Positions 10,019-63,875 of a stretch of 64,000 nt of DNA are shown piece after piece. Below the pieces are notes generated by a model. The model worked only from the letters and a program-made list of their open reading frames with translations, made no database searches and had not been told where the DNA came from. Each line of letters starts with the position of its first letter. The stretch's first letter is position 1. Source of the DNA: a phage; the NCBI GenBank assembly GCA_024683775.1, contig GCA_024683775.1_4106.1; one strand, 5' to 3'. Made by a program: the position numbers and the translations under genes.

Positions 10019-10024
10019 AAATAA

Positions 10025-10112
10025 TTGAAAAAGGGATTGACTCCGGTCAGTCCCTTTGCTATTATATACGCATAGAAACAAATTAGCCCACCGGGTGCAT
10101 AAATGTATCTAT
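10025..10112. repeat. composite intergenic repeat, copy 2
   Basis: Terminator hairpin AAAGGGATTGAC-TCCG-GTCAGTCCCTTT overlapping TTGACT-17-TATTAT, then conserved box CCCACCGGGTGCATAAATGTATCT. Confidence 0.7.
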
Positions 10113-10117
10113 TGTTT

Positions 10118-10125
10118 GCTGGTGG
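10118..10125 (+). other. Chi octamer GCTGGTGG
   Basis: Exact match just downstream of repeat copy 2. Confidence 0.8.
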
Positions 10126-10166
10126 CTAGTACTATCAAGTACTGAAAACTATTTTTAAAAAAGTAC

Positions 10167-10194
10167 TTGCAAAGTATCACGATAAGCGTATAAT
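10167..10194 (+). promoter_or_regulatory. sigma70-like promoter (TTGCAA-16-TATAAT)
   Basis: Hexamers read directly; upstream promoter of a duplicated double-promoter leader. Confidence 0.6.
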
Positions 10195-10282
10195 GTTTTA
10201 CATCAGGACGGGGAACGAAATAAGTAACCCCGTTAAGTAGTCCAGGAGTAAGACATACGAAAAACTCCCCTGATAAAATAGT

Positions 10283-10310
10283 TTGACAATAGAAAGTAAA
10301 CGAGTATAAT
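10283..10310 (+). promoter_or_regulatory. sigma70-like promoter (TTGACA-16-TATAAT)
   Basis: Consensus hexamers; about 30 nt upstream of CDS 10344. Confidence 0.65.
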
Positions 10311-10343
10311 ACTTACATCAACCACTGATAAGGAAACATTAAA

Positions 10344-10619
10344 ATGCGGACTTTACTTACAGCTAACGAAATCGAGCAAGTACTGACTACTAATCTGGAA
10401 CAATGGAAACGTGAAGCAGATATCCAGGCGGTTCAATGCCTTAACGATAAGTTAACGCCAGATGACTTAAGCACGATTGTTGATCCACAATTTTATGAAG
10501 ATATTCACGACACGTCTTTAAGCGTCGAGGATGTACTTGATAAGCACTACATTGATACTGATTTACATGTTTACGGTCGTAAAAACTTTATCACTATTCA
10601 CGACATTTACAATACTTAA
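10344..10619 (+). CDS. hypothetical acidic protein (91 aa)
   Basis: ORF; double-promoter leader and SD AAGGAA upstream. Confidence 0.7.
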   Translation: MRTLLTANEIEQVLTTNLEQWKREADIQAVQCLNDKLTPDDLSTIVDPQFYEDIHDTSLSVEDVLDKHYIDTDLHVYGRKNFITIHDIYNT

Positions 10620-10707
10620 GTATTGACAAAGTATCTTAGTACTGTATAATAGTTTACATCAAGTGAGGGGAAACGGTTCCCCTCCTAACAAAGAGAGAGA
10701 AATTAAA

Positions 10708-10890
10708 ATGGCTAAGTGCACTATCTGTAAGAAAGAAATCGTATTAGTTCCAAGTGCCCGTGAACGTGCCGCTCGGTTCGGTGGCAAAGCGTCAGACTAT
10801 ACAAAAATGTTTACTGCCCATGCAGCTTGTCAAGTAGCAAAACGTTCACAAGAAAGCGTAGAATTAATGCGTAAACTTTCCAAAAAATAA
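10708..10890 (+). CDS. hypothetical protein (60 aa, CxxC plus HxxC)
   Basis: ORF; promoter, hairpin and SD upstream; trimmed from track ORF 10663. Confidence 0.65.
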   Translation: MAKCTICKKEIVLVPSARERAARFGGKASDYTKMFTAHAACQVAKRSQESVELMRKLSKK

Positions 10891-10977
10891 GTATTGACAA
10901 AGTATCTTAGTACTGTATAATAGTTTACATCAAGCGAGGGGAATGGTTCCCCTCCTAACAAAGAGAGAGAAATAAAA

Positions 10978-11301
10978 ATGGCTATGATCCTTACCCAGAA
11001 AGTAGAACTGAAAATTGTAACCTCCTTTGACATTAAAGTTAATCGGTGGACTGATAGCCACGGCAATACTTACCACTCCTGCTACGTGTCCGCATTGATT
11101 GGTGATCGCTGGGAAGACCTGGGACACGAAACCTTTACATACGGTTACGGCACACAAGGTGAGTACACGGGTTTAGAAATCATTAAGGAAACTGTAATAG
11201 GTTTCAACCCGAAAGAGAAAGTACTACACAGAATTGAGAAAGAGATCAACAAAGAAATTACAGTTCGCTACTACGATGTAAAACGTAAGAAAGACATGTA
11301 A
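10978..11301 (+). CDS. hypothetical protein (107 aa), paralog of CDS 4490
   Basis: ORF; upstream cassette almost identical to that of CDS 10708; shares motifs with CDS 4490. Confidence 0.7.
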   Translation: MAMILTQKVELKIVTSFDIKVNRWTDSHGNTYHSCYVSALIGDRWEDLGHETFTYGYGTQGEYTGLEIIKETVIGFNPKEKVLHRIEKEINKEITVRYYDVKRKKDM

Positions 11302-11400
11302 TAGAATCCATTTAAAGTACTATTTGACATTGCCCAGATAGTACTTTATAATAGACTCTAACTTGTAGTACTAATTAACTTAACTAATAGGATGTACACC

Positions 11401-11796
11401 ATGATTACTAAATTCTTCGCTACCCGTGAACAAGCTCGCATCGTTGCCCGTGAGGAAGGTGAAACATTTAAAGACATGGGTAAAGATTCTCCTACTGGTA
11501 AACGCTGGGCGGTACAGTTCAAAGAGATCTCTGATATTGTGAATTCACCTGAGCCTGTACTTACAGCAGCAGAACTAAAGCAAGCTCAAGAACTGGCTGA
11601 AGTACTGAACGCTCAAGATGACTTCTTGAAAGGTTCTGATATTGAAGTTACAGTTAACGCAAATGCATGGACTCACGCGGATCACCTGGCAAACCTTAAG
11701 CGTCCAAGTGAACTGATTCGCAACCAGAAAGAGATCCGACACGACCGTAAGGGTAATCGTGTAACAGTATACAGTAAACGCCGCCAGGTTATCTAA
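11401..11796 (+). CDS. hypothetical protein (131 aa)
   Basis: ORF; promoter TTGACA...TATAAT upstream; start chosen at second ATG after AGGA. Confidence 0.65.
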   Translation: MITKFFATREQARIVAREEGETFKDMGKDSPTGKRWAVQFKEISDIVNSPEPVLTAAELKQAQELAEVLNAQDDFLKGSDIEVTVNANAWTHADHLANLKRPSELIRNQKEIRHDRKGNRVTVYSKRRQVI

Positions 11797-11818
11797 TAAC
11801 TTGCAGTACTAACAACAC

Positions 11819-11843
11819 GGCGGGATCAGTTCCCGCCTTTTTT
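11819..11843 (+). terminator. rho-independent terminator
   Basis: Hairpin GGCGGGA-TCAG-TTCCCGCC followed by TTTTTT. Confidence 0.75.
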
Positions 11844-11857
11844 ATAGGACAAACAAA

Positions 11858-12112
11858 ATGATTAAGGTTCAACTATATAAAGATAACATCTTACGGGTAC
11901 ACTATAAAGCACCTCAGAGAATCATCACAAAGGCCGTACAGCTTGCTAATGAGTTTATTAATGGTAACCTATTACCTAGGAAGTTAAGCAACGGGAAACT
12001 GCGTGTAATCGACGTGGACACTAACAACAGGATAGTAATCGAGAACACAGGAAAGATAAACCTTTATGAGCATCAACAATACAATAAGAAAATAAAACTA
12101 ATATCACGTTGA
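11858..12112 (+). CDS. hypothetical protein (84 aa)
   Basis: ORF; SD-like sequence upstream. Confidence 0.6.
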   Translation: MIKVQLYKDNILRVHYKAPQRIITKAVQLANEFINGNLLPRKLSNGKLRVIDVDTNNRIVIENTGKINLYEHQQYNKKIKLISR

Positions 12113-12165
12113 CAGTACTCAATTGTTTTAGTACTATGTACACATACCAACACGGGAGAAACAAA

Positions 12166-12384
12166 ATGAAATTATCTAAAATCGAAAAGAAAACTATTGA
12201 TGAAGCAGTTAAGCACGGTTATACCTTTCGTAATGATTCACATTTTACCAATTTTCAACAAGGGTATCGTACTATTAAAAAACTAATTGACAAAGGTTTA
12301 TTAGTTGAAGTCAATAACGGTAACGGTATCGAGTATCAACCAACACAAGACGCATTTTATTTTAAGAAATATAATATTATCTAA
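12166..12384 (+). CDS. hypothetical protein (72 aa)
   Basis: ORF; promoter and SD GGGAGAAA upstream; trimmed from track ORF 12109. Confidence 0.65.
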   Translation: MKLSKIEKKTIDEAVKHGYTFRNDSHFTNFQQGYRTIKKLIDKGLLVEVNNGNGIEYQPTQDAFYFKKYNII

Positions 12385-12442
12385 TTGACAGTACTCAATT
12401 GTTTTAGTATTATGTACACATACCAACACGGGGGGAAACAAA

Positions 12443-12685
12443 ATGATTACTTTAGAAAAACGTATCAAAGAAACTACATCGCTGGTGGAACTGTTAACAG
12501 TACTCAAATGTAAAACAACACCATTCAGCACGCCGGACTTTATTAATATGGTTGATGTTAATGGTCGCTATCGTATCACGGTCGAACAAGGAGCGGCGAA
12601 AGTATTCAGTACTAAAAACACTAAGGAAGTGATCCACGCCGTTAATGTTAAAAAAGTAGTTGCCATTGATAGTAAAGTACTGTAA
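12443..12685 (+). CDS. hypothetical protein (80 aa)
   Basis: ORF; upstream about 60 bp is a near-identical copy of the region upstream of CDS 12166. Confidence 0.65.
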   Translation: MITLEKRIKETTSLVELLTVLKCKTTPFSTPDFINMVDVNGRYRITVEQGAAKVFSTKNTKEVIHAVNVKKVVAIDSKVL

Positions 12686-12716
12686 TATAGTTTCATTAAC
12701 TCAAGGAGAACATGCA

Positions 12717-13301
12717 ATGCGTAAATATACTAAATTCATCCGTACACTGTCAGAAATGGAAACCAACAAAGAGATCCTTTCAGCTTGTCGGTTAGCTGGC
12801 CTGGAGATCATCGGTGCTGGTTCTTCCCGTATAGTATTCGCTTTAAATGATCGGTTAGTGATTAAGGTCGCGAATTGTGATGCGGGTGTCGAACAAAATG
12901 AAACTGAATGTAAGGTATGGAATTTTTTAGACTATGACCGCCCTCAGTTGAAACAGTACTTTGCAAAGGTGCATATGCATTTATGCGATCCTGATAATAT
13001 GTTTATCGTTATGGATCGGTTGAGTACTGCAAGCAAAGGCAGTGTGAAGCACGTAAACGCGTGCAATGAATTAAAGTACAATATTAAACGTAATGCAATC
13101 GAACGCCAGCACCGCTTTGCTGATGCACTACAACACGTTGATGATACATTATCAACACTAACGATAAGAGATATCAGAAAACAGAATATCGGCCAGGATC
13201 GTAATGGACTTATTAAAGTACTTGATTACGGTTTAACCAGCAATATCTGGAATCAGTACTATAAAAAGCGTGATGTGGCAGCAAGTAAGGTAACACGATA
13301 A
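12717..13301 (+). CDS. protein-kinase-like protein (194 aa)
   Basis: Gly-rich loop IGAGSSRIVF, VIKVA lysine, catalytic-loop-like RDIRKQNIG and DFG-like VLDYG in the expected order; SD AAGGAGAA upstream; trimmed from TTG-start track ORF 12660. Confidence 0.6.
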   Translation: MRKYTKFIRTLSEMETNKEILSACRLAGLEIIGAGSSRIVFALNDRLVIKVANCDAGVEQNETECKVWNFLDYDRPQLKQYFAKVHMHLCDPDNMFIVMDRLSTASKGSVKHVNACNELKYNIKRNAIERQHRFADALQHVDDTLSTLTIRDIRKQNIGQDRNGLIKVLDYGLTSNIWNQYYKKRDVAASKVTR

Positions 13302-13309
13302 AAAAGATT

Positions 13310-13400
13310 AAAAAAGGGATTGACTCCGGTCAGTCCCTTTGCTATTATATATCCATTGAGAGATAACTCACTGACCCATAGGGTGCGGAAGTGTATCTAT
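13310..13400. repeat. composite intergenic repeat, copy 3
   Basis: Terminator hairpin overlapping TTGACT-17-TATTAT, then box CCCATAGGGTGCGGAAGTGTATCT. Confidence 0.7.
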
Positions 13401-13525
13401 TATATAAGTATTCAGTACTGAAAACTATTTGATAAAAAGTACTTGCAAACTATCTCAATGAGCGTATAATGTTTTATATCGAGAGGGGGAAATGGTTCTC
13501 CCTGGTACTAAAAGGAATCAAGACG

Positions 13526-13747
13526 ATGACTACTATGACCTGCGTTCACGCTTCAAATCTTCTGAATGATGCAGCATTTAAAGCAGGTGAAGAATATCAA
13601 TGCTATCGGGATGAAAATAAAAAAGTTTTCGTCGTTGATGCTAACGGTTTCCATATTGAATTGCAATCCGGCTTCACTGGTTTAAATGGTAAATCAGTAT
13701 GGGGCGTTAATGATGATAATGGTCTTTATCACTTTATCCGTAATTAA
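13526..13747 (+). CDS. hypothetical protein (73 aa)
   Basis: ORF; promoter, hairpin and SD AAAGGAA upstream; trimmed from track ORF 13469. Confidence 0.65.
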   Translation: MTTMTCVHASNLLNDAAFKAGEEYQCYRDENKKVFVVDANGFHIELQSGFTGLNGKSVWGVNDDNGLYHFIRN

Positions 13748-13831
13748 GTATTTGACAAAGTATATCAGTACTGTATAATAGTTTACATCAAGGGGAGAAT
13801 AGTTCTCCCCGATACTAAAAGGAATAAAATC

Positions 13832-14239
13832 ATGACTACTACCAATCAAGCTCGGAACATCACCAACGATAAAAATCATGCTGCAATGGTCGCTGGATAC
13901 ATTGAAGCTATGCAATTCAGTACTGTATACAATGAGAACGGCGATTACCTGGAAGATTATGAATTATCAGAGCAAGCCCATCAAGCGGCAGTGATTGCAT
14001 GTTCACGTTTCCTTGCTGTACATGGTGAAGATATGGAAACAGTACAAAAACACCATAATCCTGATTATACTTATAGTCATGCAGGTCATGATCTCTTTCT
14101 TACTCGCGAAGGTCACGGCACTGGTTTTTGGGATCGTGGTTTAGGTCACTATGGCGATGTATTCACGAAGTACTGCGAAGAAATCAACGTTTGCGATCCC
14201 TATGTAGGCGATGATAACTTAATCTATATGGGCGAATAA
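13832..14239 (+). CDS. hypothetical protein (135 aa)
   Basis: ORF; promoter TTGACA...TATAAT, hairpin GGGGAGAATAGTTCTCCCC, SD upstream. Confidence 0.7.
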   Translation: MTTTNQARNITNDKNHAAMVAGYIEAMQFSTVYNENGDYLEDYELSEQAHQAAVIACSRFLAVHGEDMETVQKHHNPDYTYSHAGHDLFLTREGHGTGFWDRGLGHYGDVFTKYCEEINVCDPYVGDDNLIYMGE

Positions 14240-14328
14240 AAGTATTTGACAAAGTATATCAGTACTGTATAATAGTTTACATCAAGGGGAGAATAGTTCT
14301 CCCCACACCAATAAAAGGAAACAAAATT

Positions 14329-14601
14329 ATGTCCAGCTACTCCGCTACTATGATCATTAAAGATATGAACGGTAATCCTACTTCTGCTGGTGGATCATTT
14401 GGAAATATTAACTTAGATGGGCGGTTATCCATGCAATCAGCCATCGATGCAGCGAAAGAAGTTTTTAAGAATGAATGTACTGTTAGTAAGCTGGATTATA
14501 TGGGTTTCGCTATCGAGAAAACTACTCGTTTTGTGAACTACAAAAATCCACTGATGATTGATACTAACCTGAAAGCTAACGAAGTGGGGTACTTATTATG
14601 A
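14329..14601 (+). CDS. hypothetical protein (90 aa)
   Basis: ORF; upstream cassette duplicates the one upstream of CDS 13832; contains a Chi octamer. Confidence 0.7.
   Translation: MSSYSATMIIKDMNGNPTSAGGSFGNINLDGRLSMQSAIDAAKEVFKNECTVSKLDYMGFAIEKTTRFVNYKNPLMIDTNLKANEVGYLL
14385..14392 (+). other. Chi octamer GCTGGTGG
   Basis: Exact match read in sequence. Confidence 0.8.
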
Positions 14602-14789
14602 CAGTAGAAGAAGTAAAAAAAGTACTGGCAGTACTACGATATCATAATCATTGCAAGGTGAAGAATGATCCTGATTATCTTGATTCATCCCTGGAGGAAG
14701 ACACCTTGAACGCTATAAGCCATATGCAGACATTAGCAAAGCGTATGACTGAAAAGAACATGCCGGACTATATCGGAAATAAAATTTAA
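14598..14789 (+). CDS. hypothetical protein (63 aa)
   Basis: ORF; ATGA overlap with previous stop. Confidence 0.6.
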   Translation: MTVEEVKKVLAVLRYHNHCKVKNDPDYLDSSLEEDTLNAISHMQTLAKRMTEKNMPDYIGNKI

Positions 14790-14876
14790 AAAGTACTTGC
14801 ATTGTAGTTAGATTAACGTATAATGTTTTATATCGAGAGGGGGAAATGGTTTCCCCTCAAGTCCAGGAGATACACC

Positions 14877-15140
14877 ATGAACACTATCGAAATCACTATC
14901 AATGCACACGTATACGACAACGTAGTACTGCAAACTACTATGACCGCCAATGATACCAGTACTTTGCGGAATACTGTTATTAGTGCCGTATGTGCCGCTA
15001 TCGGTGATGTCGCCCTGGAAAATGCAAAACACGTAAACGATGGTTTCACTATGTGCAAACGTGATAACGCAAAACATATCATCGTGGAAGGTTACGGCGG
15101 TGTAGAATTTAATGTTTATATGAAAAAAGTACTTGCATAA
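14877..15140 (+). CDS. hypothetical protein (87 aa)
   Basis: ORF; promoter, hairpin, SD CAGGAGA upstream; trimmed from track ORF 14823. Confidence 0.7.
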   Translation: MNTIEITINAHVYDNVVLQTTMTANDTSTLRNTVISAVCAAIGDVALENAKHVNDGFTMCKRDNAKHIIVEGYGGVEFNVYMKKVLA

Positions 15141-15207
15141 TAACTAAAACAAAGTATAATGTTTTGCATAGGGGGAGATATCCTCCCCCACTAAAAGGAG
15201 TAATAAA

Positions 15208-15432
15208 ATGGCTAACTTTGATGAACTGATGCGGGAAGTAGCTAACCTGGCAGAAGAGAAGAAATCATTCGATTCTATCTATAACACCGCTCACCGTGAT
15301 TCAGTACTGGCATGTAACCAGGATCAAAAAGATGAACTAATCGCCACCTATCATGAAGCATGGAAGTACTACCGACAATGGGAGAAAGAAGAAAGTGAGT
15401 CTACCATTGACGGCCTCAATAATCTAATCTAA
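15208..15432 (+). CDS. hypothetical protein (74 aa)
   Basis: ORF; promoter, hairpin GGGGGAGATATCCTCCCCC and SD upstream. Confidence 0.7.
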   Translation: MANFDELMREVANLAEEKKSFDSIYNTAHRDSVLACNQDQKDELIATYHEAWKYYRQWEKEESESTIDGLNNLI

Positions 15433-15508
15433 AAGTTTTATTTCAGTACTATTGACATAGCTTGATAGTACTGATGTAATAACTTTACTAACTACAAGGG
15501 GAAACATA

Positions 15509-15766
15509 ATGGATCAGTTCACACAATATCGGGTAAATCCTCAAGCTATGGCCTACGTAGAAGACCATAAAACGTTACCAGTACTGCAACCAGTTAAAGG
15601 CCATATCTATCGTGCAATGTCGTGGTGTACGGCCCAGGATGGCTATAAAACCGTAGCCGTGGGTATGTATTGCGGTGATGGTGAATGGTTTGATCCAAAT
15701 AATCCGGTATCCATTGACAGTACTGAAAAAATGAAATGGGCCGACTACATCGAAGATATTTCATAA
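15509..15766 (+). CDS. hypothetical protein (85 aa)
   Basis: ORF; type-III promoter and SD upstream. Confidence 0.65.
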   Translation: MDQFTQYRVNPQAMAYVEDHKTLPVLQPVKGHIYRAMSWCTAQDGYKTVAVGMYCGDGEWFDPNNPVSIDSTEKMKWADYIEDIS

Positions 15767-15856
15767 AAACTATTTGACAGTACTAACCAGTAATGTATAA
15801 TGTTTTACATAGAGCGGGGGAATAGTTCTCCCGCCAATAGTTTGGAGTAAAACATT

Positions 15857-16057
15857 ATGTCTATCGCTATCGCCCTGGTTGAAGTACTGAAAGAAGCTAA
15901 AGCCAACCAGATCGACGTAAAGATCCAGGAACTACAAAACGGCTTAATCGGCTGTACTTGTACCGCTGGTGGAGCGGCAGACTATCGAGAACACGAATCA
16001 CTCGAATCACTGGTTCGGTATCTTACCATGATCGTTGATGATTGGAGAATCATCTAA
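15857..16057 (+). CDS. hypothetical protein (66 aa)
   Basis: ORF; promoter, hairpin and SD upstream; contains a Chi octamer. Confidence 0.65.
   Translation: MSIAIALVEVLKEAKANQIDVKIQELQNGLIGCTCTAGGAADYREHESLESLVRYLTMIVDDWRII
15965..15972 (+). other. Chi octamer GCTGGTGG
   Basis: Exact match read in sequence. Confidence 0.8.
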
Positions 16058-16081
16058 CAAAAAAGAATAAAAAAAGGGATT

Positions 16082-16154
16082 GACTCCGGTCAGTCCTTTT
16101 GCTATTATATACGCATAGACAAAAACTAGCCCACAGGGTGCATAGGTGTATCCA
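16082..16154. repeat. composite intergenic repeat, copy 4
   Basis: Terminator hairpin overlapping TTGACT-17-TATTAT, then box CCCACAGGGTGCATAGGTGTATCC. Confidence 0.7.
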
Positions 16155-16187
16155 AAATATATAGTTAATAACGGTGAGTAACTATCT

Positions 16188-16195
16188 GCTGGTGG
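16188..16195 (+). other. Chi octamer GCTGGTGG
   Basis: Exact match just downstream of repeat copy 4. Confidence 0.8.
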
Positions 16196-16302
16196 AACTA
16201 AAACTATTAATAAAAAAGTATTGACAAAGTATATCAGTACTGCAATAATGTATCTCGTAGGGCGGCAATGGTGCGACGGCCCACAAAGTTAGGAGATTCA
16301 AA

Positions 16303-16638
16303 ATGACTACTTCAATCGCTATCGTTAAAGCTTTCATCCGTACTAATGTTTCCTCTGTATTCATCGACGGCCTCGACCGTAACGTAGAATACTCAATCAT
16401 TATCGCACAAACGGCAAACGGTTCTCGGTACATCCTGAATGATAGTGAAGCAAATCACTACTACTTCACTAAAGCCACTGGCTTTAAACGCATCGATGCT
16501 GATGTAGTATACGCTAAGATGAATAAGCTGGTAGACAAGATTAACGCGAAAGGTACTATCGATTTACAGTACTGGACCGAAACCGATCCAGAGTATGGAT
16601 CTCACCGCTACCTGAATCCAGGTATTAAAATGAAATAG
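16303..16638 (+). CDS. hypothetical protein (111 aa)
   Basis: ORF; promoter TTGACA...(C)AATAAT and SD TAGGAGA upstream. Confidence 0.7.
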   Translation: MTTSIAIVKAFIRTNVSSVFIDGLDRNVEYSIIIAQTANGSRYILNDSEANHYYFTKATGFKRIDADVVYAKMNKLVDKINAKGTIDLQYWTETDPEYGSHRYLNPGIKMK

Positions 16639-16723
16639 TACTTGCATAGTACTTAGATTCATGTATAATGTTTTACATAGAGAGGGGGAAATGGTTCTCC
16701 CTCCTAAATTAAGGAGTTTTATC

Positions 16724-17125
16724 ATGACCTTCTCAATCACTTCCTTCGCTGACGTTTTAGTACTGGCCCGGACTTTTGGTAAAGCTGGCCTTGAACACGC
16801 TGTAAGTAATGGTCATATGCACCCTGAATATTGCCGCATCATTGGAAGCTGCAAACGTTGGGCAGTGTCCCGTAATATTGAGATTGAAAACTTCAATGAC
16901 GGCAACAACGAATATACAGTTGATGCAGTATTCGAAGCCGTTGATCTCGGCGGTATCTATAACACTAACCTGAATGATGTGCGTATCGTTCGCACGGGGT
17001 TCGGTGCTTATGATGTATCTATCCGTGAAGCTATGGACAAGGGATACATTAGCAAGGACCAGTTAGCTTACATCATGCAGCAAACTAAGGAGCGTAATGA
17101 AGCACGTACTATCTTAGGGCTGTAA
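16724..17125 (+). CDS. hypothetical protein (133 aa)
   Basis: ORF; promoter, hairpin and SD TAAGGAG upstream; trimmed from track ORF 16661. Confidence 0.7.
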   Translation: MTFSITSFADVLVLARTFGKAGLEHAVSNGHMHPEYCRIIGSCKRWAVSRNIEIENFNDGNNEYTVDAVFEAVDLGGIYNTNLNDVRIVRTGFGAYDVSIREAMDKGYISKDQLAYIMQQTKERNEARTILGL

Positions 17126-17193
17126 GCAATACACATCACCAAACATCATAGGCCGCTCTCTAGCGGCCTTAACTATATCAGGAGTACATACAC

Positions 17194-17403
17194 ATGATCT
17201 ATACAGTATATAGCGTTCTAGGCACTATTGCAGGCGTACATGATAACGTCGATGGTGCTATGCGTACAGTACTGCAACAGGTTCCACTAAAGCCTAAGAC
17301 CATTAAGCAGATGACAGCACGACTAACCAGGGCGACGGCTGGCGTGGAAGTATGGCAGGACTATGGGGATACACAGATAATCGTAAGCGTAACGAAGGAT
17401 TAA
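17194..17403 (+). CDS. hypothetical protein (69 aa)
   Basis: ORF; hairpin AGGCCGCT-CTCT-AGCGGCCT then SD CAGGAG upstream. Confidence 0.65.
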   Translation: MIYTVYSVLGTIAGVHDNVDGAMRTVLQQVPLKPKTIKQMTARLTRATAGVEVWQDYGDTQIIVSVTKD

Positions 17404-17594
17404 TGCGTAAAAGGATTTAGTACTGAATCATAAAAAAGTCAAGGCATTTTTAAACTTCAGCGTTAAAAAAATGCATAGGTAATCCCTTGACTTTTATGAA
17501 TAAAAAGGGATTGGACTATGGCAAAATGCGTAGGGGGCTAAAGGGCGGGTAACCTTAGCGACTTCGATAAAGGGGTATTACTTATAAAATGTTA

Positions 17595-17622
17595 TTGACT
17601 TTTTATATGAATCGTATATTAT
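17595..17622 (+). promoter_or_regulatory. candidate promoter of the family A operon (TTGACT ... TATTAT)
   Basis: Only sigma70-like hexamer pair between the zone-1 end and the first family A gene. Confidence 0.5.
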
Positions 17623-57986: not shown

Positions 57987-58266
57987 TGATTCGAATCTAA
58001 CAGGTTATTTTTTGCAAGAATCAATGATCAAATTCAGTGAACATTTTCCAGTACTAGATGGTGTGGAGATGTGGCATGTAAAACCACTCTTCCACACTTT
58101 CAGTAAAGAGCACAAAATGTTATTGACTGAGGCTTGTAAATCGAATAAAATATGCCAAATCAAGATTGGTGTAAATGTCTACAAAGGATTAGTCATCTTT
58201 TTTGACAACAACAGCAACTACTTTTATATTGTTAAGGAGCATTACGTTGACAAATACAAATACTAA
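57979..58266 (+). CDS. hypothetical protein (95 aa)
   Basis: ORF overlapping previous stop; trimmed from TTG-start track ORF 57958. Confidence 0.55.
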   Translation: MSDDSNLTGYFLQESMIKFSEHFPVLDGVEMWHVKPLFHTFSKEHKMLLTEACKSNKICQIKIGVNVYKGLVIFFDNNSNYFYIVKEHYVDKYKY

Positions 58267-58861
58267 TACATACTTTCGTTATCTTCGCCTAGGGCTTTCC
58301 CTACGCCCAATCCGTGGTAAGTGTGATTCACTTGCTGATTTGGATTATGCATATGCATTACATTGTGATGGTGTTCAATATGTATTAGGTGACTATGGCA
58401 CATTCGAAGAATCCAATGACAGTTCAGAAATTATTGCTGGTGTTGCTAACCTTAACAACATTGCCAATAGTTCTCGTCATGAAATCGTTCTTGAAATTCA
58501 GAACTTCATTGAGAAAAATACTGGCAAGCGTACATGGTCATATGTCGGTACTGATGCACAAATGTCAATCGCATTTGGTAACGAAGATGGTTATGTAGCA
58601 CAACTTATTATGGATTTTGAATCAGAAGAGAAGTTCCAAGAATACAAAGAAAAAATCATCCAATCCTTATTGCAAATGGGTATTCCTGAAGATCGTATGC
58701 CTGAAATTCAAAGCATTGATGAGTTTGTTCTTATCCCATCTGATGAAAAATATGATGCGATGTTCACAGCACTGAACATTCCTGGTGTAGTGGTTGAGTA
58801 CTTCGATGATGGTGATAGTGACATTTACCTAGATCTCGACGACGATGATGACGATGAATAA
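58202..58861 (+). CDS. hypothetical acidic protein (up to 219 aa; start uncertain)
   Basis: Long ORF with poly-Asp C-terminus; track start is TTG 65 nt inside previous gene; no in-frame ATG until far downstream. Confidence 0.5.
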   Translation: MTTTATTFILLRSITLTNTNTNTYFRYLRLGLSLRPIRGKCDSLADLDYAYALHCDGVQYVLGDYGTFEESNDSSEIIAGVANLNNIANSSRHEIVLEIQNFIEKNTGKRTWSYVGTDAQMSIAFGNEDGYVAQLIMDFESEEKFQEYKEKIIQSLLQMGIPEDRMPEIQSIDEFVLIPSDEKYDAMFTALNIPGVVVEYFDDGDSDIYLDLDDDDDDE

Positions 58862-58867
58862 TACATA

Positions 58868-58896
58868 TAGCCCGACATAAGTTCGGGCTATTTTTG
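58868..58896 (+). terminator. rho-independent terminator
   Basis: Hairpin TAGCCCGAC-ATAAG-TTCGGGCTA followed by TTTTT. Confidence 0.75.
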
Positions 58897-58907
58897 TAAG
58901 GGGAAAT

Positions 58908-59177
58908 ATGAATTACAAACATATACAATTCACTTATATGGAATTATTTAAATTACACCACAATCACCGAAGTACTAACACAATTAATAAAAATGCGTTT
59001 ACCCATAAAATATGGTCAAATTATCTAGAAGAATTACGTGAGTATTTTGTTAATACTGAAATTGTCATTAATGGAAAAAAACGAAAGATACTTAGAGTAG
59101 ATAGTTTCGGTGGTAGATTAGTACTTTCATATAAATTTGATAACGACCTATTCTCTGTGGATTTGGTGAATATATGA
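58908..59177 (+). CDS. family C protein (89 aa)
   Basis: N-terminal motif HIQFTYMELF; SD AAGGGGAAAT upstream. Confidence 0.65.
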   Translation: MNYKHIQFTYMELFKLHHNHRSTNTINKNAFTHKIWSNYLEELREYFVNTEIVINGKKRKILRVDSFGGRLVLSYKFDNDLFSVDLVNI

Positions 59178-59434
59178 ATTATAAAGATTTCCAATTAACA
59201 TTCAAGTGCATTCGTGACCTAGCAAATAAAAATAATAGTATATTTTTAGAAGATACATGTAATGAAATGATTAATACTGTGCGTGAGAGGATTAAAGAAA
59301 AATTCAGTACTGTAATTATTAATAACGATCATGCAGAATTTTCAGATATAATCATTAAGCTCGATGGTAAAGTAGAGGTACAGTTCTACACTGATTTTGG
59401 ATTTACGAGTGTTCCTCTGGAGATATTCCCTTGA
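59174..59434 (+). CDS. family C protein (86 aa)
   Basis: N-terminal motif DFQLTFK; ATGA overlap. Confidence 0.65.
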   Translation: MNYKDFQLTFKCIRDLANKNNSIFLEDTCNEMINTVRERIKEKFSTVIINNDHAEFSDIIIKLDGKVEVQFYTDFGFTSVPLEIFP

Positions 59435-59742
59435 AATTAAATTTGAATGATGTTCAATTCACATATAAAAATATATACGGTTTGTATGACATGTATCTTT
59501 TTAGTGGGAAGATTGGTGAACATGTAGAATCAAAAGAATCACCATTTATTCATAATTACTATGATTACTTAGATTCTATTGCTGAATATATAAAAAAGAA
59601 TTACAGTACTTACACTGATGGCGATGATATATTCGAATATTCAGGTGTCAAATCTTATCAAGGTATTATCCATGTAGAATTTCTTGAAAAAACTGATAGG
59701 GAATTTATGGAGATCAAAGTTTTGAAGTTGACAGACCTATAA
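59431..59742 (+). CDS. family C protein (103 aa)
   Basis: N-terminal motif DVQFTYKNIY; overlap. Confidence 0.65.
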   Translation: MKLNLNDVQFTYKNIYGLYDMYLFSGKIGEHVESKESPFIHNYYDYLDSIAEYIKKNYSTYTDGDDIFEYSGVKSYQGIIHVEFLEKTDREFMEIKVLKLTDL

Positions 59743-59752
59743 GGATTGACAT

Positions 59753-60064
59753 ATGAATCTTAATGATATACAATTCACATACAAATTTTTGTATATCCAA
59801 TACGCTACGGTTGATGCTGGAGAATATCTCTACGGTGAAATCTATCGTTCGGTATGGATAAAGTTTTTGGATGAATTACATGAATATTACCATGATTTGT
59901 GTATAGTTCGTGATAATAAAATATACAAATTCCGCGATATTGTTAGTCATAGCGGTAAGCTACGATTGGAATTAAGTACTGATAGTGATGTTGATTGGAT
60001 TGGTGTAAATTTACTGGAGTTGGAGAATGAAAAACAACTTAAAGGAAATACAAGTATTTTATAA
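59753..60064 (+). CDS. family C protein (103 aa)
   Basis: N-terminal motif DIQFTYKFLY; SD AAGGATTGA upstream. Confidence 0.65.
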   Translation: MNLNDIQFTYKFLYIQYATVDAGEYLYGEIYRSVWIKFLDELHEYYHDLCIVRDNKIYKFRDIVSHSGKLRLELSTDSDVDWIGVNLLELENEKQLKGNTSIL

Positions 60065-60311
60065 ATTCTTATACTTGTCATATGTAAAAGATGAGTACTA
60101 TGAAAGTGTGTATTATTTTTTATGGCAACATTACCGTACTATAGTAAGAGATTTATATATAGGAAAATCTATCATATCCAATGGTGAAAAATGTATATGT
60201 ACTGATGTTGTTAGTTTTAATGGTTCTTTAACACTGTGTTTCAGATGCGATAATAATAGTGGGTCATTTTCATTAAACGTATATCAGTTAGAAGGAATAA
60301 ATTTTGAATAA
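60027..60311 (+). CDS. family C protein (94 aa)
   Basis: N-terminal motif EIQVFYKFLY; SD GGAGTTGGAGA upstream; overlaps previous gene. Confidence 0.6.
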   Translation: MKNNLKEIQVFYKFLYLSYVKDEYYESVYYFLWQHYRTIVRDLYIGKSIISNGEKCICTDVVSFNGSLTLCFRCDNNSGSFSLNVYQLEGINFE

Positions 60312-60504
60312 ATGTCCATATTGCAACAGTACTCAATTAGCTCGTTTCCGTTTAGATTCAGACTGGGCCACTGGTGCTGGTGATTTCTTTCCCATCAATG
60401 ATGATTCGGAATACACTGAAGAACAGCACAAAGATTTCGATAAATCATGGCGACCTGACATTGAGTGCATTTATTGCCTTAATTGTGAGCGTATCCATGA
60501 CTAA
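60304..60504 (+). CDS. zinc-ribbon protein (66 aa)
   Basis: Two CxxC pairs (CPYC ... CLNC) about 45 residues apart. Confidence 0.6.
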   Translation: MNKCPYCNSTQLARFRLDSDWATGAGDFFPINDDSEYTEEQHKDFDKSWRPDIECIYCLNCERIHD

Positions 60505-60760
60505 AGCTGAACTGATCGTGCAAACACTGCGTTTATTGAGGGATTTAGATATCCCACGCATGGATGTGAAACTTGAAGATATCTACATTGAATCTCTTAG
60601 TGAAGATTACACCGATACCGTAATGATGCTGAATGACGTGCTTTATCGTATAGATAGCATCAGTCGTCTTGGAAGTACTTTAAAAGTGAATATGGAAAGA
60701 GTTGATAAACTTTACGTACATATATATAGTCTACCCATTTCAATATTAAACTATAGATGA
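60497..60760 (+). CDS. hypothetical protein (87 aa)
   Basis: ORF overlapping previous stop; trimmed from track ORF 60374. Confidence 0.5.
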   Translation: MTKAELIVQTLRLLRDLDIPRMDVKLEDIYIESLSEDYTDTVMMLNDVLYRIDSISRLGSTLKVNMERVDKLYVHIYSLPISILNYR

Positions 60761-61047
60761 ATATTATATTGATACAAAAAACATATGCTATACTGATGAA
60801 AGAATATGATAAAATTTATGATGAAAAGTGTAGTGCAAGTCATAATATGTATAAATTCATTACTCAAGAGTACAGGGATTATATATATGCTGTGTTAGTG
60901 GGTAGATATTTCAGTACTAGAAAATACCCAAAACTTCAAATAGTTGATGTTTCTTTTTATTTCAATGGTCATATTACTATTCATAGTTTAGACCAAGATT
61001 CAACAACGTACTTAAACTTTTCATTTGATGAGGTAACATTTTTATGA
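60757..61047 (+). CDS. hypothetical protein (96 aa)
   Basis: ORF; ATGA overlap. Confidence 0.6.
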   Translation: MNIILIQKTYAILMKEYDKIYDEKCSASHNMYKFITQEYRDYIYAVLVGRYFSTRKYPKLQIVDVSFYFNGHITIHSLDQDSTTYLNFSFDEVTFL

Positions 61048-61217
61048 GAACAGTATTTTTTATCTGGAGTCTTTTTTCATTGGCAGTACTGACAGCTTCA
61101 GGTGCTTATTCCTTTTTAACAATGAACACATGGTATGTTAATTTACTATTCCCAATTGTTGGTGTTGGTTTAGGATTTACTTTACATAGTGTTTGTAAGG
61201 ATTTTAATGGCAAATAA
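61044..61217 (+). CDS. small membrane protein (57 aa, two hydrophobic segments)
   Basis: ORF not in track; ATGA overlap with previous stop. Confidence 0.45.
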   Translation: MRTVFFIWSLFSLAVLTASGAYSFLTMNTWYVNLLFPIVGVGLGFTLHSVCKDFNGK

Positions 61218-61491
61218 ATCGAATGAAGTACTTGTTGCTGAAACAATGAAGATGGTTTATGCCATAACAACTAGTAATGATTTGTCTTACCCAATTAAGT
61301 CCAAGTTGAGGGATATAACTCTTCAGGTTATACAGCAGTACTACAAATCTAAACACAAAAGTATTATTAGTGTTTATCGTGATTATGAAAGGATTCGTAT
61401 TCTGTTCTGGAACAAGAACCGAGTTCGTGAGGAATGTGATATAGAGAACTTTAAATTTGAGAATCTTTATTGTTACAAAGCGGGACAATAG
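61207..61491 (+). CDS. hypothetical protein (94 aa)
   Basis: ORF; SD TAAGGA upstream; trimmed from track ORF 61189. Confidence 0.55.
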   Translation: MANKSNEVLVAETMKMVYAITTSNDLSYPIKSKLRDITLQVIQQYYKSKHKSIISVYRDYERIRILFWNKNRVREECDIENFKFENLYCYKAGQ

Positions 61492-61549
61492 CTCAAGTAG
61501 TGATATAATATTGGATGAGGAACAATAACTAACACAAGGAGTGTGTAAA

Positions 61550-62278
61550 GTGCTTGACCGTATCCGTTTCGCTACAGAGATGGCGAATGAATTAAACATG
61601 GCAAATTTTCAAATGTTAACATCAGTGATGGCTGAACATGCATGTGCTTATTCTGTAAGTGGTGTGCAGTGCGGTCAGGAGAATATGTTAGCAGATGTAT
61701 ATAGCGAAGTTCAAAGTAAACAATACAGTGTAAAGACGTACAAGGATAAGTTCGTTAGTCTTTATATGAATGAAGACATTGCAGAAGACCGCAAATATAC
61801 TGATTTTATTATTGAACGAAGAGTATCAGGTGTATCCAACCCAAATGCTGACAGTACTACAGTATTTGAAGAAGTACTTCAAGATATATATGAAAATGAA
61901 TTGAAAAGTAAGAATCATTACAATGTACGTGAAACTAACACAGTGCTCTTGGGATATGATGAAGACGATCAATATTATTATTTCCGTATGACTGAAGTTC
62001 CTTTTGAATATAAATCACCAAGTACTACTGCTGTAAAAGAATTTACCGAGAAAAGCAAGAACTACAAGAAACATGAAGGCAACCGTTGTAGTATAAATGG
62101 TTATAATGAAGATGGTGTTCATATATATGAATGGGTTCATCCTAATTGCCAGACATATACCCGTTGCTTGAAGAAACGTTATAATTTAGAAGACAATGAA
62201 TCCTTCTACTTTAAAGTTAAGAAACAAGGCTATACTCGCCCTGAAGATTCAGAATTGATGGGTATGGTATATTTCTAA
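61550..62278 (+). CDS. hypothetical protein (242 aa; probable GTG start)
   Basis: Long ORF; SD AAGGAG 8 nt before GTG at 61550; first in-frame ATG only at 61583. Confidence 0.6.
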   Translation: MLDRIRFATEMANELNMANFQMLTSVMAEHACAYSVSGVQCGQENMLADVYSEVQSKQYSVKTYKDKFVSLYMNEDIAEDRKYTDFIIERRVSGVSNPNADSTTVFEEVLQDIYENELKSKNHYNVRETNTVLLGYDEDDQYYYFRMTEVPFEYKSPSTTAVKEFTEKSKNYKKHEGNRCSINGYNEDGVHIYEWVHPNCQTYTRCLKKRYNLEDNESFYFKVKKQGYTRPEDSELMGMVYF

Positions 62279-62287: not shown

Positions 62288-62569
62288 ATGGATTTTTACC
62301 TACACACATGGTCATACGAACAATACATTACATTATATCTTGAGATTATTAATACTGATCCCAGATATGGTTGTGATTTTGCTGATATTATAAAAGAGTA
62401 TGCAGATGAGTTTGAGTTTGTATATCTTGGCTCTGACCTATTCGTGAAGAGTGTAGGTAAAACCGGACGCATCACTGAGATTGATTATGATACTGTTAGT
62501 GTGAATTTCTATGTTGATTTTCCTTGTGATGGCGTTGATGGTGTATATTGTCTATATGAAATAATTTAA
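62288..62569 (+). CDS. hypothetical protein (93 aa)
   Basis: ORF; SD TAAGGAA upstream; terminator downstream. Confidence 0.65.
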   Translation: MDFYLHTWSYEQYITLYLEIINTDPRYGCDFADIIKEYADEFEFVYLGSDLFVKSVGKTGRITEIDYDTVSVNFYVDFPCDGVDGVYCLYEII

Positions 62570-62613: not shown

Positions 62614-62916
62614 ATGATTAGTATAGATTTAATTAACAGTACTATAAAGTTGTTGGCTGATGTAGTGAGAGAATCCAATGGAACTGTATACACATCAATG
62701 TATAAAATCTTTGAACGATACATCAAGGATTGTAATATATCCTTATATGGACTGGCTGTTGATATAGACGACCACTATGAAATTAATACTTCATATAAAA
62801 CTGGAATGTTAATTGGTATTAATATAAAGATGGGATATTTTCCTTATTACTGTATAGGATTACCAGATAGTACTATGGTAGATTACCCAGCCAGTACTAT
62901 TAAACTAAGAGGATAG
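62614..62916 (+). CDS. hypothetical protein (100 aa)
   Basis: ORF after terminator; SD-like CAGG upstream. Confidence 0.55.
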   Translation: MISIDLINSTIKLLADVVRESNGTVYTSMYKIFERYIKDCNISLYGLAVDIDDHYEINTSYKTGMLIGINIKMGYFPYYCIGLPDSTMVDYPASTIKLRG

Positions 62917-62920: not shown

Positions 62921-63610
62921 TTGATTAAAGATTTAGATAGAATTTTATATGTACTGAGGGGTGTAATTACATTACAACCACAGGTTAATCGTATGGAGAG
63001 AGCCTTTGAATTAAAATCAAGAGAAACTCCATATTCACATATATCAAATGTAGTTGGATCATTCAGTGCTGAAGACTCGCCTTATGATATTTGTGTATGT
63101 GAAGTACAGCCAAGTTCGGATCTTGGATTTGCTATTTTTGATAAAAATCAAAATCTAATTAGTATGTTTCAGTGCAATAATCCTTTTTGGAAAACATGCC
63201 TGTATCCAGAGTGGGCTATGCTTGATCCAACCAAGAGTTCCATTAAAGTATATGACTCTAAAAATGATGAAGTCGTTATTGATTTGGATGAGTCAATGTC
63301 AGAGGAAGAACACTTTCAGCTAATGATGATGCGTGCTATGCCTGAATACAATGCAATGATTAACACTGTGCAATACATTAAGGATACCATGCCATCGTTG
63401 CGTACACATGAGTTTTGTCATCCGGTATTGTATGAACATTTGGATTTAGATTTCAGTACTATTAAATTTAAAGATAATGTTATTAATTACATTCAAGAGA
63501 ATGTTAAATTTGATTTTATTAGTACAATGACAAATAATCCAAATACTAATTTCAGGCATCAGTACAATGAATCTTTGTCTGGTGGTCGTGATACAACTTG
63601 GTGGAAATAA
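62921..63610 (+). CDS. hypothetical protein (229 aa) with family B-like motif
   Basis: Long ORF; motif EEEHFQLMMMRA resembles the family B core. Confidence 0.6.
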   Translation: MIKDLDRILYVLRGVITLQPQVNRMERAFELKSRETPYSHISNVVGSFSAEDSPYDICVCEVQPSSDLGFAIFDKNQNLISMFQCNNPFWKTCLYPEWAMLDPTKSSIKVYDSKNDEVVIDLDESMSEEEHFQLMMMRAMPEYNAMINTVQYIKDTMPSLRTHEFCHPVLYEHLDLDFSTIKFKDNVINYIQENVKFDFISTMTNNPNTNFRHQYNESLSGGRDTTWWK

Positions 63611-63611
63611 T

Positions 63612-63875
63612 ATGAATATCCAAGATAGATTGCAATTGTTGCACACACTTGAAGAAGCTGCTTTTGAACTTGTTAATAAAATTGCACAAGAACTCCCAAA
63701 AGGAACCAAAGTTCGTGTTCGTGAAATGGATTATTTAACGGGAAAAATTGATGAAAAAGTTCTAACAGTGATCAAAGTAACATACTATGAATCAGAGTTA
63801 TCAATTCAATGTAATTCAGATAATGGTTACGTTTCCTACTATGGCACAGATGTAGATATAGAGGTAATAAAATGA
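63612..63875 (+). CDS. hypothetical protein (87 aa)
   Basis: ORF 1 nt after previous stop; SD TGGTGGAAATA upstream; trimmed from track ORF 63567. Confidence 0.6.
   Translation: MNIQDRLQLLHTLEEAAFELVNKIAQELPKGTKVRVREMDYLTGKIDEKVLTVIKVTYYESELSIQCNSDNGYVSYYGTDVDIEVIK

What the first reader, a model, noticed from the sequence alone, without database searches (positions are those of the whole stretch)
58908..60311. Third tandem family (family C, 5 members)
Five consecutive 86-103-aa ORFs start with M-N-x-x-D-[IV]-Q-F-T-[YF]-K and share a C-terminal S-[FH]-x-G-x-L-x-L pattern, again with overlapping stops and starts.
Basis: seen in the sequence. Interest (0 to 1): 0.5.

Follow-up and report, generated by a model that had tools for sequence, protein, structure and literature searches.

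The report
Tandem small-protein family in jumbo coliphage
Five neighbouring small genes of a giant E. coli phage (121Q/Asteriusvirus group) are true, diverged copies of one gene of unknown function; they vary unusually fast between related phages, so this is a real but fairly ordinary accessory gene family.

Summary
The window is an Asteriusvirus (121Q/PBECO4-like, Rak2-related) jumbo coliphage, 98% identical to fEgEco12 and Ecwhy_1. The five ORFs at 58908-60311 exist as described. They are annotated as hypothetical proteins in 36 phage genomes. They are homologous: a profile trained on any four clades recovers the fifth at 21-57 bits, against 14.6 bits or less for decoys, and all five hit phrog_21004. 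dN/dS is mostly 0.1-0.3, so they encode proteins. An AlphaFold model (pLDDT 84.5) shows an N-terminal two-helix hairpin followed by a small beta domain. It has no significant PDB match; the only resemblance is weak and SH3/Tudor-like.

The family is almost confined to Asteriusvirus: 19 representatives among 1.84 billion proteins. Two remote relatives are probable in Klebsiella phage RaK2. Copy number runs from 0 to 5, and alleles are mosaic (27-100% identity, against 73-100% for the flanking genes). The proteins are absent from the phAPEC6 virion proteome. The whole window lacks the T4-type late promoter TATAAATA. A conserved terminator hairpin precedes the array, and the ORFs are translationally coupled.

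A sixth, diverged member is likely at 60757-61047. The most likely function is a non-virion, pre-late accessory protein that binds host or defence factors; this is inferred, not shown. Interest is low to moderate.

The parts
58867..58897 (+). Intrinsic-terminator-like hairpin (9-bp stem, GCCCGA/TCGGGC core) plus T-run, sitting between the conserved 205-aa gene and member 1
   Evidence: Found by the terminator scan. The hairpin and T-run are conserved in all 12 Asteriusvirus loci compared. Only about 15 nt, containing the AAGGGG Shine-Dalgarno site, separate it from the ATG of member 1.
58908..59177 (+). Family member 1 (89 aa, pI 9.5, the only basic member)
   Evidence: ORF listed. Hits phrog_32291 at 5e-31 and phrog_21004 at 8e-6. 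Leave-one-out profile score 45.4 bits. dN/dS 0.18-0.26. Corresponds to fEgEco12 g167 and 121Q gp422.
59174..59434 (+). Family member 2 (86 aa, the most divergent; ATGA overlap with member 1)
   Evidence: Hits phrog_35943 at 1e-45 and phrog_21004 at 4e-4. Leave-one-out profile score 21.7 bits, against 12.2 bits for the best decoy. dN/dS 0.11-0.19.
59431..59742 (+). Family member 3 (103 aa, TTG start in a TTGA overlap, with a 10-residue insertion between the two helices)
   Evidence: Hits phrog_21004 at 4e-35. Leave-one-out profile score 21.3 bits. dN/dS 0.17-0.30. The same start is annotated in fEgEco12 g169.
59753..60064 (+). Family member 4 (103 aa, the modelled member)
   Evidence: Hits phrog_21004 at 2e-44. 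Leave-one-out profile score 57.5 bits. AlphaFold2 model has pLDDT 84.5 and pTM 0.72, with elements H3-18, H22-46, E50-53, E56-66, E69-75, E82-86, H87-92.
60027..60311 (+). Family member 5 (94 aa; its start lies 38 nt inside the 3' end of member 4, in another frame)
   Evidence: Hits phrog_21004 at 1.6e-4 and phrog_32291 at 8e-4. Leave-one-out profile score 42.3 bits. The N-terminal family motif MKNNLKEIQVFYK confirms the upstream ATG, and a GGAG lies 7 nt before it.
60304..60504 (+). Conserved 66-aa zinc-ribbon-like ORF (CPYC...CIYCLNC). It bounds the array and is not a family member.
   Evidence: ORF listed. It is 85-100% identical across Asteriusvirus loci. It is also present in RaK2 as ORF454, at the same relative position.
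60757..61047 (+). Probable sixth, diverged family member (96 aa)
   Evidence: It aligns end to end and collinearly with the family profile (MNIILIQKTY......FNGHITIH). The score is only 12 bits, at decoy level, and hhalign gives 35% probability. Its 92%-identical slurp01 ortholog, P0040 = A0A1C3S6P8, is a full-length structural match to the member-4 model in BFVD: E 1.8e-4, TM 0.68/0.73, rmsd 2.6 A. Its own AlphaFold2 model is low-confidence (pLDDT 63) but has the same H-H-E-E-E order.

Best explanation
SHOWN. The region holds a lineage-restricted multigene family of small (86-103 aa), soluble, mostly acidic proteins. Each has an N-terminal two-helix hairpin packed against a small C-terminal beta domain. 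The genes lie head to tail in a translationally coupled block of an Asteriusvirus jumbo coliphage. The block starts right after a conserved terminator hairpin. The copies arose by old tandem duplications: paralogs are 15-30% identical, and only about 30 nt at the 5' ends is still detectable as a DNA repeat. Selection acts at the protein level. The array turns over quickly between related phages through gain and loss of copies, cassette-like replacement of alleles and occasional fusion of neighbouring copies.

INFERRED. The proteins are made before the late phase, stay in the infected cell and are not packaged. I infer that they act as binding modules for host, defence or competitor-phage proteins. 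On this reading a conserved core and N-terminal helix carry variable surfaces, and each paralog or allele is tuned to a different target or target variant. That would make them dispensable accessory genes for host takeover or counter-defence. It would also explain why they vary far more than the flanking genes.
For: - Identity of the window: 98% identical to Escherichia phages Ecwhy_1 and fEgEco12, genus Asteriusvirus.
- Homology of the five ORFs.
- Protein-coding status: dN/dS 0.11-0.30 for members 1-3 and 0.04-0.77 for members 4-5. Each ORF has its own Shine-Dalgarno site.
- Fold: AlphaFold2 pLDDT 84.5 and pTM 0.72, with two helices followed by 4-5 strands.
- Physical character: no signal peptide or transmembrane segment is evident on reading the five sequences (no predictor was run). 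All five have a negative hydropathy index. pI is 4.8-5.8 for four of the five.
- Restricted distribution: 36 phage records, all Asteriusvirus. There are 19 representatives among 1.84 billion proteins. IMG/VR holds only 121Q itself.
- Turnover: 5, 4, 3 or 0 copies at the same syntenic site. Alleles are mosaic. Against 121Q, members 1-3 are 59-77% identical while members 4-5 are 99-100%. Against WPEC5, only member 4 differs (66%). Against A4, members 1-4 are 27-42% and member 5 is 96%. Neighbours such as the methyltransferase, the 205-aa protein and the zinc-ribbon ORF stay at 73-100%. The NJ tree shows non-orthologous copies in A4 and JNE01. Salmonella phage SD-6_S16 carries a member 2/3 chimera.
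- Not virion proteins: the phAPEC6 orthologs gp386c-389c are not among the 62 proteins detected by mass spectrometry (PMC7247149).
- Not late genes: TATAAATA occurs 0 times in the 64-kb window against 13 +/- 4 expected. In the phAPEC6 structural region all 7 copies lie in intergenic DNA just upstream of genes, on the right strand, including the major head gene.
- Setting: the window's first 16 kb carries 12 of the window's 17 sigma-70-type early-promoter cassettes. It matches the short-ORF early region proposed for the related phage CBB (PMC5259590).
Against: - No experiment or annotated homolog bears on function. The binding or counter-defence role rests only on context, variability and fold class.
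- No promoter was found for the array, and a terminator precedes it. Expression level and timing are therefore unproven.
- Small proteins can be missed by virion mass spectrometry.
- Many neighbouring small ORFs are just as variable. High turnover may reflect general dispensability rather than an arms race.
- dN/dS below 1 shows constraint. Diversifying selection was not tested by site models.
Confidence: 0.5

Rival explanations
1. The proteins are small nucleic-acid- or RNA-polymerase-binding regulators. An SH3/Tudor-like beta domain plus a helical hairpin would dock on RNA polymerase or on DNA/RNA and redirect transcription during takeover, in the manner of CarD or Mfd-RID.
Confidence: 0.15
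2. The proteins act in competition between phages, as superinfection-exclusion or immunity factors against related jumbo phages. The variable paralogs would track variable proteins of competitor phages rather than host proteins.
For: The same variability and mosaicism as in the main explanation, and the same non-virion, pre-late setting.
Against: Classical exclusion proteins such as T4 Imm and Sp are membrane proteins (my own knowledge). The family members read as soluble: none shows a hydrophobic segment. There is no direct evidence.
Confidence: 0.12
3. The array is neutral or decaying genetic material. Duplicated ORFs would persist only because jumbo genomes tolerate them, and they would have no current function.
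For: Copies are lost in some lineages: 3 in JNE01 and Turkey5, 0 in EJP2, and a fused copy in SD-6_S16. dN/dS for members 4-5 reaches 0.5-0.8 in some pairs.
Against: ORFs stay intact in 12 of 12 loci despite dS up to 1.8. dN/dS is 0.1-0.3 for members 1-3. Start motifs and Shine-Dalgarno sites are conserved. The fold prediction is confident.
Confidence: 0.06
4. The proteins are virion or assembly components, for example small decoration, chaperone or hair-fibre accessory proteins.
For: Asteriusviruses have many unassigned structural features such as hairy fibres (PMC7247149). Small proteins are easily missed by mass spectrometry.
Against: They are not among the 62 virion proteins of phAPEC6. 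There is no TATAAATA late promoter anywhere in the 64-kb window, whereas structural genes have one. The array lies in the short-ORF block on the strand of the early genes.
Confidence: 0.04

Closest known systems
PHROG families phrog_21004, phrog_32291 and phrog_35943 (all 'unknown function')
   Same: These are the same proteins. Members 3 and 4 hit phrog_21004 at 4e-35 and 2e-44, member 1 hits phrog_32291 and member 2 hits phrog_35943. All five cross-hit phrog_21004.
   Different: PHROGs splits the family into three groups. It records neither the tandem arrangement nor the fold nor any function. The likely sixth member falls in yet another group, phrog_28826.
Short-ORF early regions with paralogs in Rak2-like jumbo phages (for example CBB_390-546 of Pectobacterium phage CBB, PMC5259590)
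   Same: Both are long same-strand blocks of short hypothetical ORFs with sigma-70-type promoters. They are thought to be early host-takeover genes, and CBB has 22 recognised paralogs. The flanking synteny, from Dam and cytidyltransferase through the 205-aa protein to RnlA, is shared with RaK2.
   Different: Family C itself is not detectable outside Asteriusvirus, apart from two weak RaK2 hits at 17-20 bits. No early promoter lies directly upstream of the array, and a terminator precedes it.
Lineage-specific expansions of small proteins in jumbo phages (for example about 35 zinc-ribbon copies in Bacillus phage G, PMC7824862)
   Same: Both are tandem or clustered amplifications of a small domain within one phage lineage, with unknown but presumably regulatory or conflict-related roles.
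   Different: The fold differs (helical hairpin plus beta domain, no metal-binding cysteines). The copy number here is much smaller, at 3-6.
Multigene families and 'genomic accordions' of large eukaryotic DNA viruses (ASFV MGFs, poxvirus K3L amplification). This comparison rests on my own knowledge.
   Same: As a concept: tandem paralog arrays of small host-interaction proteins with copy-number variation and rapid divergence between strains.
   Different: The viruses, hosts and proteins are unrelated. The duplications here are old, with no recent amplification visible. An arms-race role is inferred, not shown.
SH3/Tudor-like small beta-barrel domains (CarD/Mfd RID, PcrA Tudor, eIF5A/EF-P N-domain)
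   Same: The C-terminal 45-50 residues are predicted as a 4-5-stranded antiparallel beta unit. Their best, though weak, PDB matches belong to this fold class.
   Different: No match is significant, and none covers the N-terminal helical hairpin. Pfam shows no sequence signature.

Membership tests
Family C itself (one homologous family of five ORFs) | Each ORF is recovered by a profile built without it or its orthologs, above decoy level | tested here: met
   Scores are 45.4, 21.7, 21.3, 57.5 and 42.3 bits. The best shuffled decoy scores 14.6 bits or less in a database of 1128 sequences.
Family C itself | All members match one independent external profile over most of their length | tested here: met
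   phrog_21004 E-values for members 1-5 are 8e-6, 4e-4, 4e-35, 2e-44 and 1.6e-4.
Family C, extension to 60757-61047 | Significant sequence or structure match to the family | tested here: inconclusive
   Sequence evidence is weak: 12 bits, equal to the top decoys, and hhalign 35%. Structure evidence is stronger. The BFVD model of its ortholog A0A1C3S6P8 matches the member-4 model at E 1.8e-4 and TM 0.68/0.73. Its own AlphaFold2 model is low-confidence.
Family C, extension to Klebsiella phage RaK2 (ORF453, ORF456) | Profile score above composition-matched decoys at the syntenic locus | tested here: met
   Scores are 17.4 and 19.7 bits, against a maximum of 12.8 bits in 2280 decoys. BFVD lists an 89-aa RaK2 protein at TM 0.58/0.65 and E 0.06. 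PHROGs gives no support, so the link is moderate only.
T4-type late genes | A TATAAATA late promoter upstream | tested here: not met
   The motif occurs 0 times in 64 kb (13 expected). In the phAPEC6 structural region all 7 copies lie just upstream of genes.
Virion (structural) proteins of Asteriusvirus | Detection in the virion proteome | tested here: not met
   Orthologs gp386c-389c are absent from the 62 proteins in Table 1 of PMC7247149.
Any curated protein family (Pfam-A, NCBIfam, PDB sequences) | A hit above the curated cut-off | tested here: not met
   Only sub-threshold chance hits appeared.
Anti-defence or host-takeover accessory proteins | A demonstrated target or phenotype | not testable with these tools
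   Only indirect evidence is available: pre-late setting, non-virion status, hypervariability and copy-number variation.

The most novel reading that the evidence does not exclude
Family C may be the recognisable tip of a much larger, fast-evolving superfamily. In this reading one scaffold, a helical hairpin plus a small beta domain, fills much of the small-ORF region between the 205-aa gene and RnlA in all Rak2-like jumbo phages. It would serve as a diversifiable binder platform, with individual copies neutralising different host defence or takeover targets.

Three hints point this way.
- A divergent metagenomic relative has 6-9 profile-positive ORFs in the region.
- RaK2 has two.
- The downstream 96-aa ORF shares the fold.
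Probability: 0.2. Interest if true: 0.6.

Novelty: new member of a known kind. Interest (0 to 1): 0.27.

Why it matters
More than 80% of the genes of these 350-kb phages have no known function. Much of that dark matter consists of arrays like this one. This work shows that one array is a genuine, selected protein family. It has a confident and so far unmatched two-part fold, non-late and non-virion status, and unusually fast allele and copy-number turnover. That gives a small, well-defined target for deletion and pull-down experiments. Asteriusviruses are being developed for phage therapy, so such variable accessory genes are candidates for host-range or counter-defence determinants. In itself the finding is not surprising, because tandem paralog families of small early proteins are a known feature of jumbo phages.

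Tried and rejected
1. Word-indexed homolog searches with member 4 and with the five-member alignment found only near-identical Asteriusvirus proteins.
2. The exhaustive profile search of 1.84 billion representatives added nothing outside the lineage. The one exception was P0034, a 1243-aa repeat protein matched by 13 short stretches. I judge this a repeat or composition artefact or convergence, not homology.
3. Pfam, NCBIfam and PDB sequence searches gave nothing above threshold.
5. I tested whether the neighbouring ORFs 60374-60760, 61189-61491, 62288-62569, 62614-62916 and 63567-63875 belong to the family. hhalign gave 34% or less, and iterative profiles with decoys did not include them. Membership is not shown.
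6. I tested whether family C is related to the other tandem families upstream in the window. No hit rose above decoy level.
7. I looked for a promoter for the array. There is no early cassette (AGTACTGTATAAT), no GTGWTATAAT and no TATAAATA nearby. The TTGACA-N17-TACAAT site at 59746-59774 overlaps the start codon of member 4 and is probably a chance match.
8. The region has no Rfam family and no tRNA.
9. A literature search found no paper describing this family.

Full report
**What the window is.** A megablast of 58000-62000 finds 36 phage records. All are Escherichia or Salmonella jumbo phages of the 121Q/PBECO4 group, genus Asteriusvirus. The best matches are Ecwhy_1 and fEgEco12 at 98% identity. 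In fEgEco12 the five ORFs are g167-g171, and in 121Q they are gp422-gp426. All are annotated 'hypothetical protein'. Nearly all long ORFs of the 64-kb window lie on the + strand.

**Checking the observation.**
- The motifs are consensus patterns rather than strict ones. Only member 4 matches the N-terminal pattern exactly, and member 3 matches it after a 2-residue offset. Members 1, 4 and 5 match the C-terminal pattern.
- These two segments are nevertheless the best-conserved parts of the family. Among 39 distinct sequences, G68 is invariant, Y10 occurs in 35, T9 in 32, S65 in 32 and Q7 in 31.
- The junctions are ATGA, TTGA (member 3 starts with TTG), a 10-nt gap, a 38-nt overlap, and an 8-nt overlap into the next gene. 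Every member has its own Shine-Dalgarno site.

**Homology.**
- BLASTP links four of the five members pairwise.
- A profile of those four finds member 2 at E 1e-5.
- I then ran a stricter test. Profiles were built from orthologs of four positional clades and searched against all window ORFs plus five-fold shuffled decoys. They recovered the left-out member at 45.4, 21.7, 21.3, 57.5 and 42.3 bits, while decoys reached at most 14.6 bits.
- Independently, all five hit phrog_21004 over most of their length.
- At DNA level only about 30 nt at the 5' ends of members 1-4 still registers as a direct repeat, at 70-83% identity. The duplications are therefore old.

**The genes are real.** Nei-Gojobori dN/dS between the window and 121Q, ph0011, UE-S1 and WPEC5 is 0.11-0.30 for members 1-3, with dS up to 1.8. 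For members 4-5 it is 0.04-0.77. ORFs are intact in all 12 loci examined.

**Fold.**
- AlphaFold2 on member 4, with a 24-sequence alignment, gives pLDDT 84.5 and pTM 0.72. The model has helices at 3-18 and 22-46, followed by strands at 50-53, 56-66, 69-75 and 82-86 and a short helix.
- Foldseek against PDB has nothing at E of 1e-3 or less. The weak partial hits to the C-terminal half are SH3/Tudor/KOW-type barrels: CarD, Mfd, PcrA Tudor, eIF5A/EF-P and HEX-1.
- In BFVD only Asteriusvirus proteins are significant.
- Pfam, NCBIfam and PDB sequence searches are negative.
- Four members are acidic (pI 4.8-5.8) and member 1 is basic (pI 9.5). All are hydrophilic and rich in aromatic residues.

**Distribution and evolution.**
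- tblastn finds the family in 36 records, all Asteriusvirus.
- An exhaustive profile search of 1.84 billion representatives returns 19 hits. The 13 whose sequences I read were 12 proteins of 52-105 aa with the family's N-terminal motif plus one repeat protein, which I regard as spurious. The other six had already been recovered as family members.
- IMG/VR holds only 121Q.
- Copy number at the syntenic site, between the conserved 205-aa gene and a zinc-ribbon ORF, varies. It is 5 in most phages. It is 4 in Salmonella phage SD-6_S16, where members 2 and 3 are fused. It is 3 in JNE01 and Turkey5, and 0 in EJP2.
- Alleles are mosaic. Against 121Q, members 1-3 are 59-77% identical but members 4-5 are 99-100%. 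Against WPEC5, only member 4 differs (66%). Against A4, members 1-4 are 27-42% and member 5 is 96%. The methyltransferase, the 205-aa protein and the zinc-ribbon ORF stay at 73-100% in the same comparisons; the cytidyltransferase falls to 66-72% in two of the phages.
- An NJ tree shows five positional clades plus non-orthologous copies in A4 and JNE01. This is birth-and-death evolution with cassette exchange.
- A divergent metagenomic contig (L012) has six profile-positive ORFs at the site and three more downstream.
- In Klebsiella phage RaK2, whose flanking synteny is conserved, ORF453 and ORF456 score 17.4 and 19.7 bits. The maximum among 2280 decoys is 12.8 bits. PHROGs gives no support for this link.

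**A likely sixth member.** ORF 60757-61047 (96 aa) aligns collinearly with the profile from its Met-Asn start to the NG turn. It scores only about 12 bits, which is decoy level. hhalign gives 35% probability. Its 92%-identical slurp01 ortholog is UniProt A0A1C3S6P8. The BFVD model of that protein matched my member-4 model over 90 columns, at E 1.8e-4, TM 0.68/0.73 and rmsd 2.6 A. Its own AlphaFold2 model is weak (pLDDT 63) but shows the same order of elements. I rate membership at about 70%.

**Expression context.**
- A 9-bp GC-rich hairpin plus T-run at 58867-58897 lies directly before member 1. It is conserved in all 12 loci.
- No promoter consensus lies between the hairpin and the array.
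- The window's first 16 kb holds 12 of the window's 17 near-identical early-promoter cassettes. The AGTACTGTATAAT pattern occurs 17 times in the whole window against 0.27 expected.
- The T4-type late promoter TATAAATA is absent from the whole 64 kb, against 13 +/- 4 expected. In the phAPEC6 structural region all 7 occurrences are intergenic, on the coding strand and 25-60 nt upstream of genes, including the major head and scaffold genes. That region also encodes a late sigma factor. The array is therefore very unlikely to be a late operon.
- The phAPEC6 orthologs gp386c-389c are absent from the 62-protein virion proteome (PMC7247149).
- For the related phage CBB, a comparable block of short ORFs was proposed to be the early host-takeover region (PMC5259590).

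**Interpretation.**
- Shown: a real, selected, tandem paralog family with a confident and so far unmatched two-part fold. It is narrowly distributed, hypervariable in allele and copy number, non-virion and non-late.
- Inferred, at roughly 50% confidence: the proteins are dispensable intracellular binders of host, defence or competitor proteins, diversified by duplication and recombination.
- Rivals: RNA-polymerase or nucleic-acid regulators (weak fold hints, but acidic proteins), inter-phage exclusion factors, neutral decay and virion components. Their evidence is set out in the rival section.

**Novelty.** No paper in the searchable library describes the family. PHROGs already holds the proteins, split into three to four groups of unknown function. 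Tandem families of small early proteins are a known feature of jumbo phages. I therefore class this as a new member of a known kind, of low to moderate interest.

Noticed in passing
window 1-64000 (compared with L013 = phAPEC6 130000-179999): The T4-type late-promoter motif TATAAATA is completely absent from both strands of the 64-kb window, against 13 +/- 4 expected. In the phAPEC6 structural-gene region all 7 copies are intergenic, on the right strand and just upstream of genes, including the major head gene. The motif seems to be purged wherever it is not a promoter.
   Followed up: partly
window 1-17600: Nearly every gene is preceded by the same 60-90-nt cassette. It has a UP-like 'aaaagtac', then TTGCAA/TTGACA, N17 and (AGTACTG)TATAAT, followed by a GC hairpin and a Shine-Dalgarno site. 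AGTACTGTATAAT occurs 17 times in the window against 0.27 expected, 12 of them between 1.5 and 15.8 kb. The ORFs starting 'MFYIERGK...' at 3885, 13469 and 14823 are translations of this repeat.
   Followed up: partly
window 40721, 44598, 53709, 61500 (also 19692, 30553, 42037): GTGWTATAAT, which resembles an extended -10 element, occurs 7 times against 1.2 expected. Four of the copies lie in the few intergenic gaps of the tightly packed 17.6-64 kb region. This may be a second promoter class without a -35 element.
   Followed up: no
window 60304-60504: A 66-aa acidic zinc-ribbon-like ORF (CPYC...CIYCLNC) bounds the array. It is far better conserved than its neighbours, at 85-100% within Asteriusvirus, and is recognisable in RaK2 as ORF454.
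   Followed up: partly
window 60374-60760, 61189-61491, 62288-62569, 62614-62916: Other small ORFs downstream of the array show the same allelic hypervariability between Asteriusvirus genomes (34-100% identity). The interspersed larger genes stay at 84-100%.
   Followed up: partly
L010 3200-3490 (Salmonella phage SD-6_S16; protein P0025): A 96-aa ORF is a chimera. It joins the N-terminal two thirds of member 2 to fragments of member 3. This reflects a deletion or recombination between neighbouring paralogs, or an assembly error.
   Followed up: partly
P0034 (1243-aa protein from the representative library): The beta-strand half of the family profile (positions 48-84) matched 13 tandem repeats of a long repeat protein ('...SNRDGKLKIKVKDNNNSFQGTVEITYS...'), with a summed E of 2.5e-9. 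This is probably a repeat or composition effect or convergence. Its origin is unknown.
   Followed up: no
L012 3257-7428 (Logan SRR22590159 contig, 9.3 kb): A more divergent Asteriusvirus-like metagenomic contig keeps the Dam/cytidyltransferase synteny. It carries six profile-positive small ORFs at the array site and three more beyond the 232-aa gene. This suggests a larger superfamily.
   Followed up: partly
window 17600-56000: The stretch holds many further head-to-tail arrays of small paralogous ORFs. Examples are the 70-85-aa ORFs starting 'MK.LT..EY' at 17.6-24.5 kb and the 150-200-aa ORFs at 34-51 kb. None was detectably related to family C by profile search.
   Followed up: partly
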